From: an uncultured delta proteobacterium
Lineage (GTDB): Bacteria; Myxococcota_A; Polyangia; Palsa-1104
Direction of reading: 5' to 3'
Length of the DNA: 64,000 nucleotides
Assembly (NCBI GenBank): GCA_963785725.1
Contig: CAWAWS010000003.1
Location: 64,001 to 128,000 of the forward strand
Shown here: positions 59,655 to 63,918 of the stretch, in pieces
Numbering within the stretch: position 1 is the stretch's first letter
Layout of the letters: every line of letters starts with the position of its first letter
The notes under the pieces: generated by a model
Database searches by the model: none
The model's input: the letters and a program-made list of their open reading frames with translations, nothing else
Told to the model about the DNA's origin: nothing
Program-made: the position numbers and the translations under genes

Positions 59655-60821
59655 TCAGCCCTTTACGCACAAGAGCTGCTTGAGCTCGGCCACGATCTCG
59701 ACCAGATCGCGCTGATTGGCCATGACCTGATCGATCGCCTTATAGGCGCCGGGGATCTCGTCGATGACGCCGTGATCCTTGCGGCACTCCACTCCCGCCG
59801 TCTGCGCGCGCAGATCGTCGAGCGTGAACGTTCGCTTGGCCGCCGAGCGCGACATGCGGCGGCCGGCGCCGTGCGACGCCGACTCGAAGGACTCGGCGTT
59901 GCCCAGGCCGCGTACGATGTACGAACGCGTTCCCATCGAGCCGGGGATGATGCCGAGCTCGCCGCGTCCGGCGCGGATCGCGCCCTTGCGCGTCACCAGC
60001 AGCTCGGCGCCGAAGTGCTGCTCCTCGGCGACATAGTTGTGGTGGCACGAAATGGGCGGCGCGAACGCCACGTCGGACCGAACGAAGCGCGCGAGCACGG
60101 AGCGGTAGAGCTCGAGCATCACCTGCCGATTCGCCGCCGCGTAGCGCTGCGCCCAGAACAGATCGCGACGATACGCGGCCATTTCCGCCGTGCCGGCCAA
60201 AAATACGGCCAGGTCGCGATCGGGCAGCTCACGGTTATGCGCCAGCTGCTTGGCGCGATGGATATGCAGCTCCGCCAGCTCCTTGCCGATGTTGCGCGAA
60301 CCGGAATGCAACATCAGCCAGACGCGATCTTCGGTGTCGAGACAGAGCTCGATGAAGTGGTTGCCTCCGCCCAGCGTTCCCAGCTGCTTGCGCGCCTTGC
60401 CCTCCAGCGACTGCACGCGCTCGTCGAGCGCACCGAACTCGGCGAACAGGTCGTAGTGGCGGGCCAGCTTCACGTCGTCGTGCGCGTTGAAGCCGACGGG
60501 GATCAGCGCTTCGATCGCCGCGCGCAGATCGCCGAGCTGCTCGGGCAGATCGTGCGAGGTCAAGTTGGTGCGCTGCGCGGCCATGCCGCAGCCGATATCG
60601 ACGCCGACGGCCGCGGGCGCGATCGCGTCTTTCATCGCCACGACCGAGCCGACGGTGGCGCCCTTGCCGAGGTGCACGTCGGGCATCACCGCGACGTGCG
60701 AGAAGCACCACGGCAGCGACGCGATGTTCTTGAGCTGCGTCAACGCCGCCGACTCGACCTCTTCGAGCGGCGCCCACATCTTGATGGGTACGTTCTTTCC
60801 TTTGAGCTCCGAGATGGACAT
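59655..60821 (-). CDS. rtcB: RtcB RNA 2',3'-cyclic phosphate/5'-OH ligase
   Basis: MPDVHLGKG; VGVDIGCG; GTLGGGNHFIE; LHSGSR; CHHNY; RKGA; IPGSMG; SHGAGR; DEIPGAYK. Confidence 0.97.
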   Translation of the reverse strand: MSISELKGKNVPIKMWAPLEEVESAALTQLKNIASLPWCFSHVAVMPDVHLGKGATVGSVVAMKDAIAPAAVGVDIGCGMAAQRTNLTSHDLPEQLGDLRAAIEALIPVGFNAHDDVKLARHYDLFAEFGALDERVQSLEGKARKQLGTLGGGNHFIELCLDTEDRVWLMLHSGSRNIGKELAELHIHRAKQLAHNRELPDRDLAVFLAGTAEMAAYRRDLFWAQRYAAANRQVMLELYRSVLARFVRSDVAFAPPISCHHNYVAEEQHFGAELLVTRKGAIRAGRGELGIIPGSMGTRSYIVRGLGNAESFESASHGAGRRMSRSAAKRTFTLDDLRAQTAGVECRKDHGVIDEIPGAYKAIDQVMANQRDLVEIVAELKQLLCVKG

Positions 60822-61136: not shown

Positions 61137-61152
61137 AAGGGCGAACAAAATT

Positions 61153-61229
61153 GCAGCTGGTGGAAACGGAGGGTTACTCCGCGTCGGACACCCGTGTCCG
61201 ACATTCCGGGTGGGGGATAACCCAGCTGC
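61153..61229 (-). ncRNA. Candidate Ro60-associated (Y-like) RNA, copy B
   Basis: Terminal stem GCAGCTGG/CCAGCTGC; unpaired GTTATCCCCCACCC; GGAA/TTCC; hairpins GTCGGACA/TGTCCGAC and GCGGAG/CTCCGT. Confidence 0.55.
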
Positions 61230-61270
61230 TCCGGCTCGCCGACAGCGAAACAAAACGCGGACGAGGAATC

Positions 61271-61337
61271 GGGCTGGGGTTGCGGGCTTCGAACCCGCGC
61301 CGGCGTTGGCCGGCTTCAACCGATGATAACCCAGCCC
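61271..61337 (-). ncRNA. Candidate Ro60-associated (Y-like) RNA, copy A, with T-arm
   Basis: Terminal stem GGGCTGG/CCAGCCC; unpaired GTTATCATC; GGTT/AACC; hairpin GCCGGC-CAAC-GCCGGC; T-arm GCGGG-TTCGAAG-CCCGC. Confidence 0.6.
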
Positions 61338-61349
61338 ATTCGGCCCGCG

Positions 61350-61423
61350 TGGAGCCACTCGTCGGAGTCGAACCGCCTTGCCCGTATACGAGACGGGTGC
61401 CTTCCCGGAAGGCAACGAGGGGC
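61350..61423 (-). tRNA. tRNA-Thr(CGT), atypical, CCA encoded
   Basis: GCCCCTC GTT GCCTT CCGGG AAGGC A CCCGT CT-CGT-AT ACGGG CAA GGCGG TTCGACT CCGAC GAGTGGC T CCA; one mismatch each in the acceptor and T stems. Confidence 0.78.
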
Positions 61424-61495: not shown

Positions 61496-63145
61496 TTACG
61501 GACGTGGCCGCGTGCGCGCGAAGTCGGCCAAGATCGTCGGCGTGGCCGTATCGAAGCCGACCACGTCGAGCATCCCGGCATCCGTCGGATCGGCGATCGA
61601 GAAGCCGTTCGACACCATGCCCACGACCACCAGCTTGGCCGCGATTCCCAGGCGCTGCCGATACTGTCGCAGCGCCTGCGCCGGATGGATGCCGCCGGCC
61701 CACGTCTCCGAGTCGGTGTAGATGACGAACGTATCCACCTCGACGCGGCGCTCGATCGCCCACAACATCGGCTGCGCGCAGTCGGTGCCGCCGAAGGGCA
61801 GCCCGCTGACCCGCTCGACGGCGCGGTCGAGCCGCCAGTGCGGCGAGATGTCGAGCTCCGTCAGCGACGGTGCACCGCCACCATATTGCCCGCCGTACTG
61901 GCCGTTGCCGGCGCTCGTGAAGGCGACGAAGGCGTGCTGCTTCTCCGTCGCCGCCGTCACCAGCGCCATCGCCGCGCTCGCCACGCGCGGCGTCAGCCCG
62001 GGCACGCCCGCCACCGCGCCGCCGTCCATCGAGCCCGAGACGTCGAGCGCCAGCAGCGTCCGCATGCCCGATGGCTCGACATGCTTGAACGACGCATGGA
62101 ACGCGTCGCTCAGCGCGTCGACGATCGCGGCCCGCGGCGTCCACGTGTGCTGGCCGCGGACGCCGCGACCGGCGGCGTACGTCTTGAGCGCCGCCAGGAT
62201 CGCGATCGGATGGATGCGCGCCGCCGCCAGCCGCGCGCCGTCGCGCAGCCGGTCGGCCACGAGCCGCGTGGCGTCGCTGAGCACGCCCAGCAGCCCGACG
62301 CGGGTCATCGTCGCCAGGTTGCGGATCAGCGCCGCCAGCGGCATGTGCTCGAGCAGCGCCTCCCACACGCGCGCCTCGTCGAGCCACACCGTCGGGACGC
62401 ACTCGCGCGGCAGGTTGTGCTGCGTCACCAGCCGCACGATCTCGCGCACGTCGGTCGCGCGCTTGGCCTGCTCGAAGGCGTCGACGAGCGCCAGCGCCGG
62501 CGGCACCGGCTGCCGCAGCTCGCCGCGCACGATCCAATGATAGAGCTCGTCGTGCTCGGCCGACGGCGCCTTCGGGTGGGCGAGACGCAGCAGATCGCGC
62601 GTCGACCAGCCGTCGCGCGACTGATACTTCACCGCCTGGTACGCGACAGTACCAACGGGCTTGTCATTGAACCAGCGCTGCACCGCCGTCCGCGTAGCGC
62701 GGCCCCAACCACCGAACGCTTGTACGTATTCGGCGAAGTGCATGAGGTGCGTGCCCGTGCGGCAGACCTGGGGCAGCGCCGCCAGGGCCGCGCGGCGCGT
62801 CGCGAAGTCGCCGCGCTTGGCGGCCATCGCCAGCGCGAAGATCGCCGGATCGTTCTTGGGCGCCCGGCCGGCGTCGCTGACGGCGACGATCTGCGCGACG
62901 GTGCGCGCGCCGTCGCCGTCGATGCAGCGGGCGACCGCCTCGGCGTTCTCCCGCGTCAACGCCGGCTCCTTGGCGTAATAGCTGCCGCCCTCGGTGCCGA
63001 GAATCAGGAAGCGGTCGAGCCGCGTCCAGTCGTCGACGGCCCAGGCGAAGCCGCCGCCGGAGTTGGCGACCTGCGTCGAGCCCGGAATGGGCTGCGACTG
63101 CGGCGTCTGGTTGAGCGAGAACAGCTTTCCATAGTTGATACCCAC
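61496..63145 (-). CDS. rsr: Ro60/Rsr TROVE-domain RNA-binding protein with vWA domain
   Basis: QVANSGGGFAW..DDW.RLDRFLILGTEGGSYY; KYQSRDGWS.RDLLRLAHP; MP..ALIRNL; IHP; MIDAS DVSGSM; GGTDC; YTDSETW; DVVGFD. SD AAGGAGGTGA precedes the GTG start. Confidence 0.95.
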   Translation of the reverse strand: MGINYGKLFSLNQTPQSQPIPGSTQVANSGGGFAWAVDDWTRLDRFLILGTEGGSYYAKEPALTRENAEAVARCIDGDGARTVAQIVAVSDAGRAPKNDPAIFALAMAAKRGDFATRRAALAALPQVCRTGTHLMHFAEYVQAFGGWGRATRTAVQRWFNDKPVGTVAYQAVKYQSRDGWSTRDLLRLAHPKAPSAEHDELYHWIVRGELRQPVPPALALVDAFEQAKRATDVREIVRLVTQHNLPRECVPTVWLDEARVWEALLEHMPLAALIRNLATMTRVGLLGVLSDATRLVADRLRDGARLAAARIHPIAILAALKTYAAGRGVRGQHTWTPRAAIVDALSDAFHASFKHVEPSGMRTLLALDVSGSMDGGAVAGVPGLTPRVASAAMALVTAATEKQHAFVAFTSAGNGQYGGQYGGGAPSLTELDISPHWRLDRAVERVSGLPFGGTDCAQPMLWAIERRVEVDTFVIYTDSETWAGGIHPAQALRQYRQRLGIAAKLVVVGMVSNGFSIADPTDAGMLDVVGFDTATPTILADFARTRPRP

Positions 63146-63263: not shown

Positions 63264-63284
63264 ATGAAATGCAATGCAATGACG

Positions 63285-63357
63285 TGCTCCCGGCAGGAGT
63301 CGAACCTGCAATGTCCGGTTTAGAAGACCGGCGCCCATTCCATTGGGCTTCGAGAGC
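63285..63357 (-). tRNA. tRNA-Arg(TCT)
   Basis: GCTCTCG AA GCCC AATGGAAT GGGC G CCGGT CT-TCT-AA ACCGG ACATT GCAGG TTCGACT CCTGC CGGGAGC A. Confidence 0.9.
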
Positions 63358-63377
63358 GATTGGACGCAAACAAGCAG

Positions 63378-63450
63378 TGCTCCCGGCAGGAGTCGAACCT
63401 GCACTTCATCCTTCGCAGGGATGTGACCTATCCATTAGTGCGACGGGAGC
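63378..63450 (-). tRNA. tRNA-Arg(GCG)
   Basis: GCTCCCG TC GCACTAATGGATAGGTC A CATCC CT-GCG-AA GGATG AAGT GCAGG TTCGACT CCTGC CGGGAGC A; weak D-stem. Confidence 0.82.
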
Positions 63451-63464
63451 TTGAATACATCGAG

Positions 63465-63536
63465 TGTCCTCGCCAGGAATCGAACCTGGAATGTCGGCTT
63501 CGGAGACCGGCGTGAGATCCATTTCACTACGAGGAC
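63465..63536 (-). tRNA. tRNA-Arg(CCG)
   Basis: GTCCTCG TA GTGA AATGGATC TCAC G CCGGT CT-CCG-AA GCCGA CATT CCAGG TTCGATT CCTGG CGAGGAC A. Confidence 0.88.
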
Positions 63537-63556
63537 GACGCTGTCACTTCAGTGAG

Positions 63557-63749
63557 TAGTCGTGGCGGGATTCGAACCCGCACGGTCGAAGCAAGAGATC
63601 CTCTGAGGAAACGCGCTTCCCTGCCAAAGCGTTCCCGCCCGGGCCCGGTGCATCCGTAAACCTTGGATCTCGCCGCCGTCAGGCGTCTCCGACTGCTTTC
63701 GCTATCGGTTTCCGTTTTTCCGACGCGCTCCCTTTTGCGCTACACGACC
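63557..63749 (-). ncRNA. tRNA-shaped RNA with a 128-nt structured insert replacing the anticodon loop
   Basis: Acceptor GGTCGTG/CACGACT plus A; TA; D-arm GCGC-AAAAGGGA-GCGC; G; stem TCGGA/TTCGA enclosing 63591-63718; CCGT; T-arm GCGGG-TTCGAAT-CCCGC. Confidence 0.75.
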
Positions 63750-63760
63750 ATTCGAAACGG

Positions 63761-63833
63761 TGGAGTCGGAGGGAGTTGAACCCTCGTCTCTGCGATGCGA
63801 GCGCAGCGTGTTCCCGTTATTCACCACGACCCC
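63761..63833 (-). tRNA. tRNA-Ala(CGC)
   Basis: GGGGTCG TG GTGAATAACGGGAACAC G CTGCG CT-CGC-AT CGCAG AGAC GAGGG TTCAACT CCCTC CGACTCC A; G3:U70 and A73 present. Confidence 0.9.
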
Positions 63834-63918
63834 TTGCTACAGCGGCGAGACACGACGAGCAGTGTTGAAAGACCGAGCGCGTCCTGCATAGGTCGTCATT
63901 CGGCGTTTCATTCAGCTG

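What the first reader, a model, noticed from the sequence alone, without database searches (positions are those of the whole stretch)
63557..63749. 193-nt tRNA-shaped RNA with a 128-nt folded domain in place of the anticodon loop
Seen: all tRNA frame elements sit in normal order with normal spacing (7-bp acceptor, U8-A9, 4-bp D-arm, G26, 5-bp TCGGA/TTCGA stem, 4-nt variable region, T-arm with TTCGAAT, A73). The loop is 128 nt and folds: CCGAT-A-GC-GAAA-GC-A-GTCGG with a GNRA loop, CGCC-TGAC-GGCG, and GAGATCC/GGATCTC enclosing GGAAC-GCTT...AAGC-GC-GTTTCC. Known: YrlA Y RNAs are circularly permuted with a closed acceptor stem; tmRNA has G3:U70, no D-stem and a much longer insert; group I introns are usually longer. 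This RNA fits none of these. Inference: either a new tRNA-mimic ncRNA (Ro60 partner, nuclease decoy, possibly CCA-added or charged) or a tRNA with an unusual intron that the neighbouring RtcB could ligate. I could not identify a plausible spliced anticodon loop.
Basis: partly seen in the sequence, partly recalled or inferred. Interest (0 to 1): 0.92.

Follow-up and report, generated by a model that had tools for sequence, protein, structure and literature searches.

The report
Widespread giant-armed tRNA-mimic RNA family
This stretch is one gene of a widespread, uncatalogued family of 150-280-base tRNA-shaped RNAs in bacteria, phages and plasmids; they carry a large, strongly conserved folded domain where the small variable arm should be, lack a normal code-reading loop, and likely act on the protein-making machinery instead of reading codons.

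Summary
The 193-nt element is real (minus strand, in a tRNA array upstream of rsr and rtcB). It belongs to a family of at least 155 distinct sequences (151-283 nt) from phages, plasmids and genomes of five phyla. No Rfam family describes it, and nine paper searches found no description.

The tRNA frame is under selection: acceptor, D and T stems and the 15:48 Levitt pair covary. A short arm with an AAAAC loop (no U33) sits at the anticodon position; the large domain sits at the variable-arm position. That domain has a near-invariant core (GGUUGC-RGAW-GCACC...GGGAAGCGCGUUUCC) and may dock the AAAAC loop (weak support).

The intron idea is not supported. RNA-library contigs of a Bacillota member are unspliced, two end exactly at base 73, and RtcB or Ro60 is rarely adjacent. 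Sixteen of 119 members carry G3·U70 with G1:C72 and G2:C71 (15 also A73), in several lineages.

Best reading: a non-decoding, probably chargeable tRNA mimic acting on the translation apparatus; function untested. My look-ups found no earlier scan report on this family, only on other giant tRNA-like RNAs.

The parts
63557..63749 (-). Whole tRNA-framed ncRNA gene, 193 nt; CCA not encoded
   Evidence: single copy in the genome
63743..63749 (-). Acceptor stem 5' strand GGUCGUG (G1·U72, G2:C71, U3:A70)
   Evidence: all 7 pairs show both-side changes in 64 homologs
63725..63740 (-). D arm GCGC-AAAAGGGA-GCGC with A14, A15 and G18G19
   Evidence: GG in 118 of 119; 15:48 covariation
63705..63723 (-). 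Arm at the anticodon position: UCGG/CCGA stem, 11-nt loop AAAAACGGAAA with the conserved AAAAC(G), no U33
63695..63702 (-). Small GNRA hairpin (optional in the family)
63687..63693 (-). 5' strand of the helix that closes the variable-arm domain (pairs with 63585-63591)
   Evidence: in 105 of 119 members the best partner of the pre-T strand lies 3' of the AAAAC loop
63673..63684 (-). Variable hairpin with UGAC loop
63665..63671 (-). Helix GAGAUCC pairing with GGAUCUC (63595-63601)
   Evidence: probability 0.96
63647..63662 (-). Conserved core 5' strand GGUUUAC-GGAU-GCACC (family GGUUGC-RGAW-GCACC); the window carries an A·C mismatch at a G-C family pair
63622..63646 (-). Variable stem-loop capping the core
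63607..63621 (-). Conserved core 3' strand GGGAAGCGCGUUUCC; (C)GUUU is the predicted docking site for the AAAAC(G) loop
63565..63581 (-). T arm GCGGG-UUCGAAU-CCCGC
63557..63564 (-). Acceptor 3' strand CACGACU and discriminator A73
63759..63833 (-). Upstream neighbour tRNA-Ala(CGC); the array continues beyond the window to G000 C3:129345 (20 standard tRNAs on this strand)
63464..63536 (-). Downstream neighbour tRNA-Arg(CCG)
61496..63145 (-). rsr (Ro60: TROVE + vWA_Ro60); context, not an obligate partner
61150..61351 (-). Two Y-RNA-like elements downstream of rsr (context)
   Evidence: Deinococcus Y RNA E=1.4e-4, below gathering, for 61251-61351; the second is read from sequence
59655..60821 (-). 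rtcB RNA ligase (context)

Best explanation
This is a gene of a conserved family of tRNA-shaped RNAs that lack a normal anticodon loop and carry a near-invariant domain at the variable-arm position, and that likely act as processed, probably chargeable tRNA mimics on the translation apparatus. Shown by sequence comparison: the family; the tRNA stems; covariation of the 15:48 pair; the core helix pairs; the A-rich loop without U33. Weak hint only: an unspliced RNA with a tRNA-like 3' end for one Bacillota member. Inferred: RNase P and the CCA enzyme mature it like a tRNA. Inferred: host synthetases charge at least some members (alanine in the G3·U70 subset). Predicted: the AAAAC(G) loop pairs with (C)GUUU in the core like a built-in codon-anticodon pair, hiding the loop and packing the domain. 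Inferred: the invariant bulge and internal loops contact a universal tRNA-handling machine, most likely the ribosome reached via EF-Tu, to modulate or rescue translation when tRNAs are damaged or a phage takes over. I put about 0.9 on 'non-decoding tRNA-scaffold ncRNA, not an intron' and about 0.45 on the translation-effector mechanism as a whole.
For: 155 distinct members, 119 at under 90% identity. On an unfitted MAFFT alignment of 64 members, 97% of cells pair and 17 of 23 pairs show both-side changes, against 34-53% paired for slid controls. The Levitt pair is A-U or G-C in 85 of 95 rows with A14 (shuffled mean 55); independent tree pairs give p about 0.002. All 16 G3·U70 members also have G1:C72 and G2:C71 and 15 have A73, whereas only 17 of the other 103 have G2:C71; at least 6 label changes are forced by supported branches; these match the bacterial alanine determinants listed in PMC9976931 (passages). 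CCA is encoded in 34 of 119. No shared protein neighbour among 135 flanking ORFs of the solitary copies, which points to a universal partner. 67 of 100 loci have tRNA genes within 1 kb. Solitary copies have promoter-like motifs: sigma54-type in 8 of 28 GC-rich cases vs 6 of 2333 control windows; -10 box in 5 of 17 vs 84 of 1007. RNA-library contigs are unspliced and bounded by the gene.
Against: Nothing here shows ribosome or EF-Tu binding, or charging. 103 of 119 members lack G3·U70, including this one, and acceptor stems and discriminators vary freely (A 85, G 23, U 11). The loop-core pairing has few compensatory changes (5 cells, 2 of 500 shuffles; pairing 85.4% vs 83.8% shuffled) and only 2 supported independent pairs. 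Its spacing from the T stem varies from 18 to 49 nt, so docking could be between molecules or absent. A variable arm of 80-200 nt may not fit the ribosome. The family model costs about 12 kcal/mol against the MFE in this member. Core invariance is inflated by my search patterns, and acceptor and T pairing by my parser (at least 6 of 7 and 4 of 5 required). The eight sigma54 cases come from about two lineages. No RNA data were examined for the window's own copy.
Confidence: 0.45

Rival explanations
1. The tRNA frame is only a natural scaffold that gets the RNA cut out and stabilised. The working part is the core itself, as a ribozyme, a small-ligand pocket or an RNA-RNA oligomerisation module (AAAAC loop of one molecule docking in the core of another).
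For: Invariant unpaired bases in a bulge and two internal loops; free variation of the acceptor stem; no fixed protein neighbour; variable spacing between loop and docking site. Other large bacterial ncRNAs, GOLLD and ROOL, form oligomers (PMC12286853, start of abstract in the listing).
Against: The core was not seen outside a tRNA frame: apart from four partial, weak matches (E above 1e-3), all 220 core-profile hits in the fetched loci lie in a tRNA frame (some patterns required the T loop). The repeated full alanine identity set is not needed for a mere scaffold. RNA contigs run through the core. A glmS-like pairing failed covariation.
Confidence: 0.27
2. It is a decoy or inhibitor for tRNA-targeting nucleases, or an accessory RNA of Ro60/RtcB repair systems: a tRNA shape with a hidden, uncleavable anticodon loop.
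For: Here it shares an array with rsr, Y-like RNAs and rtcB. Ro60 is enriched among carriers: 9 of 40 genomes vs 16 of 201 in a phylum sample and 19 of 46 virus or plasmid records. RNA-repair operons respond to cut tRNA (PMC7790460, passages).
Against: 31 of 40 carrier genomes gave no TROVE match, including a complete chromosome (G462) and a 98%-complete genome (G250). Ro60 lies in the flanks of 2 of 80 loci (a lower bound: it missed L189 seen). The YrlA Ro60-binding motif occurs in the first 40 nt of 2 of 119. A decoy for diverse nucleases should vary, not keep an invariant core across phyla.
Confidence: 0.17
3. It is a tRNA gene with an unusual intron that is excised and ligated by RtcB.
For: rtcB lies 2.7 kb downstream.
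Against: No joints in 8 RNA runs; contigs keep the insert. The insert is not in the anticodon loop. The remaining loop has A before AAC in 116 of 119. No Rfam intron hit; both group I P7 words in 3 of 119. RtcB in the flanks of 9 of 80 loci. ARAGORN's anticodon call differs between close homologs (Lys, Gln, Ala).
Confidence: 0.04
4. It is a dead tRNA interrupted by a dispersed repeat.
For: A neighbouring tRNA-Glu gene in the same array does carry a multicopy inverted-repeat insertion.
Against: The insert is single-copy in this genome, conserved across phyla, and the frame shows compensatory evolution.
Confidence: 0.01

Closest known systems
Phage T4 species 1 and 2 RNAs (rnaC, rnaD; NC_000866) and T5 RNA1/RNA2 (AY543070, annotated 'tRNA-like stable RNA with unknown functions')
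   Same: Oversized RNAs in phage tRNA clusters, some with a T arm; function unknown (annotations).
   Different: The core profile gives no hit in the T4 or T5 regions at E up to 5. This family keeps a full D arm, extends to chromosomes and plasmids, and has its own near-invariant core.
tmRNA (Rfam RF00023)
   Same: tRNA frame around a large insert; a subset carries G1:C72, G2:C71, G3·U70, A73; possibly ribosome-directed.
   Different: It has a real D stem and an anticodon-position arm, is 151-283 nt, shows no conserved reading frame, and most members lack G3·U70; no ARAGORN tmRNA call in the window.
YrlA Y RNAs (Rfam RF02553; PMC4201824, passages read)
   Same: tRNA mimic with D and T arms and the Levitt pair; here encoded near rsr and rtcB.
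   Different: Not permuted: free 5' end and acceptor 3' end; no GNCGAAN0-1G motif near the 5' end (2 of 119); not tied to Ro60.
Class II tRNAs (Leu, Ser, Sec) and allo-tRNAs (PMC5389517, passages read)
   Same: Extra domain at the variable-arm position; 7/5 acceptor/T layout like ordinary tRNA.
   Different: The arm is a multi-helix domain of about 80-200 nt; the anticodon loop is non-canonical; the RNA is not 8/4 or 9/3. Of 20 loci scanned, only L308 reached the Rfam tRNA cut-off over its whole length (38.9 bits).
GOLLD and ROOL RNAs (Rfam; PMC12286853, listing and start of abstract only)
   Same: Large structured ncRNAs; their link to tRNA arrays is recalled from my own knowledge.
   Different: No Rfam match; far shorter and built on a tRNA frame.

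Membership tests
Canonical decoding tRNA (RF00005) | 7-bp acceptor, D arm, T arm, tertiary 8:14, 15:48, G18G19 | tested here: met
   (U8-A14 in 92 of 119; 15:48 in 85 of 95)
Canonical decoding tRNA (RF00005) | 5-bp anticodon stem with a 7-nt loop and U33 | tested here: not met
   11-nt loop here; loop sizes of 7 to over 20 nt in the family; A before AAC in 116 of 119
Canonical decoding tRNA (RF00005) | Aminoacylation and EF-Tu delivery | not testable with these tools
   identity elements only
tmRNA | G3·U70 and A73 acceptor | tested here: not met
   window has U3:A70; met in 15 of 119 relatives
tmRNA | No D stem; internal tag reading frame | tested here: not met
   D stem present; spacings not held in frame; no ARAGORN or Rfam tmRNA call on the element
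YrlA Y RNA | Permuted tRNA module with closed acceptor stem and a GNCGAAN0-1G Ro60-binding stem | tested here: not met
   open acceptor end; motif in 2 of 119; features from PMC4201824
YrlA Y RNA | Encoded within about 4 kb of Ro60 | tested here: inconclusive
   met for this copy; seen in 2 of 80 loci; 31 of 40 genomes without a TROVE match
Group I intron in tRNA | P7 core words; Rfam intron match; insertion in the anticodon loop | tested here: not met
   (P7 words recalled)
Spliced tRNA intron of any type | Joined product lacking the insert | tested here: inconclusive
   no joints in 8 RNA runs for homolog L203; contigs drop rare and short forms
Bulge-helix-bulge intron | BHB motif at the exon-intron boundaries | not tested
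   no motif scan run; no plausible spliced anticodon loop
T4 species 1/2 and T5 RNA1/RNA2 | Sequence homology | tested here: not met
   core profile no hit; full profile hits only T arms
glmS ribozyme, permuted (resemblance recalled) | Pair between the first bulge base and the C of AGC | tested here: not met
   G to A change uncompensated in 32 of 155 (b1:e6); no Rfam hit
5S rRNA helix II / loop A / loop E (resemblance recalled) | Loop E non-canonical pairs and shared words | tested here: not met
   only CCGA and UAGG shared with the genome's own 5S; the column two past G·A covaries as a Watson-Crick pair (c7:e-2)

The most novel reading that the evidence does not exclude
A new class of ribosome-targeting RNA: a charged tRNA body fused to a conserved domain that supplies its own codon, so it could enter ribosomes without mRNA and without an SmpB-like protein. 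It would be a second, tag-free RNA route to ribosome rescue or control, spread by phages, plasmids and tRNA arrays across many phyla; or else the first natural ribozyme or aptamer carried on a tRNA scaffold.
Probability: 0.25. Interest if true: 0.96.

Novelty: new variant of a known kind. Interest (0 to 1): 0.8.

Why it matters
Bacteria have few known non-decoding tRNA mimics with a described role (tmRNA, Y RNAs), and the tRNA-like stable RNAs of phage tRNA clusters are still annotated as function unknown. This family is broad, has a near-invariant non-tRNA core, and is missed by the annotation records I checked. It is directly testable: it occurs in cultured Streptomyces phages (Comrade and relatives) and as a stand-alone gene on Cytobacillus, Peribacillus, Priestia and Listeria plasmids, with minimal versions of about 152 nt suited to structure work.

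Tried and rejected
Exact window-specific pattern in viral contigs: 0 hits. BLAST of genomes: 3 real matches of 61 including the window's own (G017 was an ordinary tRNA T arm) and 3 of 401; these are lower bounds. L044 against plasmids and L016 against phages: no match. The genome-scale pattern was loose: 38 of 111 hits are framed members, the rest chance matches. The UGC-GGAU-GCA hairpin, first seen in the core, is broken by the C and U variants that instead covary with the 3' strand. The self-complementary reading of GGAAGCGCGUUUCC (hairpin or dimer) conflicts with CC/GG covariation (L011, L015) and with 3' variants. glmS-like and 5S-like readings were rejected (see membership rows). A 4-mer test of the local arm was weak (109 of 119 vs 77 of 119 in its control), so I lean. 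The tree tests of core pairs had too few supported independent pairs (1-2). Thermodynamic z-scores are uninformative. The sigma-70 and terminator scan upstream of the array found nothing. PMC9484302 lists other plasmid ncRNAs, not this one (passages). Preprint 10.64898/2026.07.01.735769 concerns manA and EGFOA (abstract and outline). No covariance model was built.

Full report
Observation. The element lies on the minus strand at 63557-63749, between tRNA-Ala(CGC) and tRNA-Arg(CCG). The array runs from G000 C3:124966 to 129345 with 20 standard tRNA genes on this strand and encloses rsr and two Y-RNA-like elements, followed by rtcB. Rfam gives no match on the element at E up to 5 or up to 2. It is single-copy in the genome by BLAST and by profile. 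Its folding energy alone is not unusual (z -1.12).

Finding the family. BLAST found two homologs in the same genus, which exposed conserved words in the insert. Patterns built on them gave 9 framed members of 10 viral hits, 38 of 111 genome hits, more from two single-motif viral scans (38 and 15 hits), 39 of 41 with a relaxed pattern and a metagenome scan stopped at 120 rows. A parser kept 202 loci from 215 candidates: 155 distinct sequences of 151-283 nt, 119 at under 90% identity. A few real variants were dropped by the parser (L085, L245, L268, L272, L284, L337, L339 and two cut by contig ends). Named genome carriers are Myxococcota, Pseudomonadota, Bacillota, Deinococcota and Planctomycetota. 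The RNA also occurs in 23 Streptomyces phage records, 17 covering at least 80% of the query, and 18 plasmid records of Listeria, Cytobacillus, Peribacillus, Bacillus and Priestia. It is unannotated in the two records I opened. Twenty further loci gave no describing Rfam family; one member scored as a plain tRNA over its full length.

Architecture. On a MAFFT alignment of 64 of the 119 representatives, not fitted to any structure, the acceptor, D, T and core helices pair in 97% of cells and 17 of 23 pairs show changes on both sides; slid controls pair in 34-53%. My parser required at least 6 of 7 acceptor and 4 of 5 T pairs, so the pairing fractions are inflated. The 15:48 pair was not selected for: it is A-U or G-C in 85 of 95 rows with A14 (shuffled mean 55, none of 10000 as high) and holds on independent tree pairs (p about 0.002). 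G18G19 is present in 118 of 119. The L-shaped tRNA core is therefore likely kept.

The proposed stem 27-31/160-164 is possible in this sequence (probability 0.32 against 0.49 for the local arm) but pairs in only 101 of 263 aligned cells. The MFE and RNAalifold on the ten shortest members give a short arm at the anticodon position with an A-rich loop, then a domain in the variable-arm position. The loop holds AAAAC(G), varies in size and has A where U33 would be in 116 of 119, so by established tRNA rules it cannot decode normally.

The core. It reads as one irregular hairpin: GG/CC, a U-rich internal loop, UGC/GCG, a 3-4 nt bulge (GGAU 110, AGAA 26, others 19 of 155), GC/GC, an A/GAA loop, CC/GG, a G·A pair and a variable cap. 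Support: CC/GG is compensated in L011 and L015; the middle pair of UGC/GCG is G-C in 98 of 119, C-G in 5, U·U in 5 and other mismatches in 11, including A·C here. The tree offers only 1-2 supported independent pairs for these changes. The bases that never vary are partly fixed by my patterns. The loop AAAC(G) is complementary to (C)GUUU in the core: C:G or U·G in 119 of 119, A:U in 119 of 119 at one position, G:C 98 and A:U 4 at the next, with compensations in L213 and L195. The formal test is modest (5 both-side cells, 2 of 500 shuffles) and the spacing varies. I treat this docking as predicted. Apart from four partial weak matches, all 220 core-profile hits in the fetched loci lie inside a tRNA frame.

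Identity. Acceptor stems vary freely, but 16 of 119 have G3·U70; all 16 also have G1:C72 and G2:C71 and 15 have A73, against 17 of 103 with G2:C71 among the rest. On a tree without acceptor columns the label needs 11 changes, at least 6 on supported branches, although the sign test is not significant (p 0.125). These are the bacterial alanine determinants in PMC9976931 (passages). This suggests selection for charging in several lineages. The window's copy has U3:A70, A73 and no encoded CCA; 34 of 119 encode CCA.

Context. 67 of 100 loci with full flanks have same-strand tRNA genes within 1 kb. Solitary copies have no shared neighbour among 135 of 162 picked ORFs that were scanned. They often have a promoter-like motif just upstream: sigma54-type in 8 of 28 GC-rich cases (about two lineages) against 6 of 2333 control windows, and a -10 box in 5 of 17 AT-rich cases against 84 of 1007 (motifs recalled). 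Ro60 is enriched but not required: 9 of 40 carrier genomes, 16 of 201 in a phylum sample, 19 of 46 virus or plasmid records (many are incomplete). Ro60 and RtcB lie within the flanks of 2 and 9 of 80 loci.

Expression. I searched runs with a Bacillota member (L203), not the window's copy, and laid 8 of 24. In six runs from five studies a contig of 153-177 nt lies within the gene's limits and runs through the core; X4 and X14 end exactly at base 73 and X10 one base short; no joints were seen. Three contigs extend past the gene, and no DNA or silent control was laid. This is a weak hint of a discrete, unspliced RNA with a tRNA-like 3' end; a short spliced product would be missed.

Mechanism. The best reading is a processed, probably chargeable, non-decoding tRNA mimic whose conserved domain locks its own loop and contacts a universal tRNA-handling machine, most likely the ribosome (0.45). 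A scaffolded ribozyme, aptamer or oligomer is next (0.27), then a nuclease decoy or Ro60 accessory (0.17). The intron (0.04) and dead-gene (0.01) readings are not supported. No step after the sequence comparison is shown.

Known relatives and literature. It is not a member of tmRNA, YrlA, group I introns or the T4/T5 stable RNAs (membership table). Nine full-text searches found no description. I read passages of PMC5389517, PMC9484302, PMC10690425, PMC4201824, PMC7790460 and PMC9976931, and the abstract and outline of 10.64898/2026.07.01.735769. Six supplementary files of PMC10690425 held none of five core words, but files 1, 2 and 4 were not searched, so the family could sit unnamed among its 10,006 candidates. 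Most subscription papers are outside the library. Earlier scan notes describe other giant tRNA-like RNAs; sequence look-ups returned no report on this family.

Verdict. A real, widespread and apparently undescribed ncRNA family: a new variant of the tRNA-mimic kind with a novel conserved domain. Interest 0.8.

Noticed in passing
L001:8263-8500 (G000 C3:128263-128500, minus strand; beyond the window): A tRNA-Glu(UUC)-like gene whose D loop is interrupted by a roughly 165-nt element with terminal inverted repeats; 13 further matches elsewhere in the genome at 74-88% identity. It looks like a miniature mobile element in a tRNA gene.
   Followed up: partly
G000 C39:625418-627815: A second Ro60 gene next to a five-tRNA cluster. 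Its upstream region is 68% identical over 289 nt to the leader of the C3 array. The core profile finds no copy of this RNA there.
   Followed up: partly
L001:9345-9900 (G000 C3:129346-129900): Array leader of about 550 nt: an AT-rich stretch, then several hairpin-like segments and a tRNA-like 5' half just before the first tRNA; no Rfam match.
   Followed up: no
window 61150-61351: Two tandem Y-RNA-like elements downstream of rsr that share a CUGGGUUAUC...AACCC...CCAGC frame; only the upstream one scores against the Deinococcus Y RNA model, below the gathering cut-off.
   Followed up: partly
L001:8071-8190 and window 63835-63917: Two long spacers in the array with possible structure; the first is single-copy in the genome.
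   Followed up: no
window 63284-63833: Array tRNAs include rare anticodons: Arg(GCG) and Ala(CGC).
   Followed up: no
L078, L101, L122 (Sandaracinaceae): Solitary members followed within about 40 nt by a strong Shine-Dalgarno and a similar reading-frame start.
   Followed up: no
L044, L051, L054, L040, L026 and relatives: A subfamily has an extra hairpin with a conserved GUAAUG loop between the core and the T arm.
   Followed up: no
L348:6001-6195: On a Listeria plasmid the gene sits between a Tn3 transposase and bcrABC, unannotated.
   Followed up: no
L212, L284: Bacillota copies with a changed acceptor 3' strand (L212 is classed as a provirus), as if the gene served as an integration site.
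   Followed up: no
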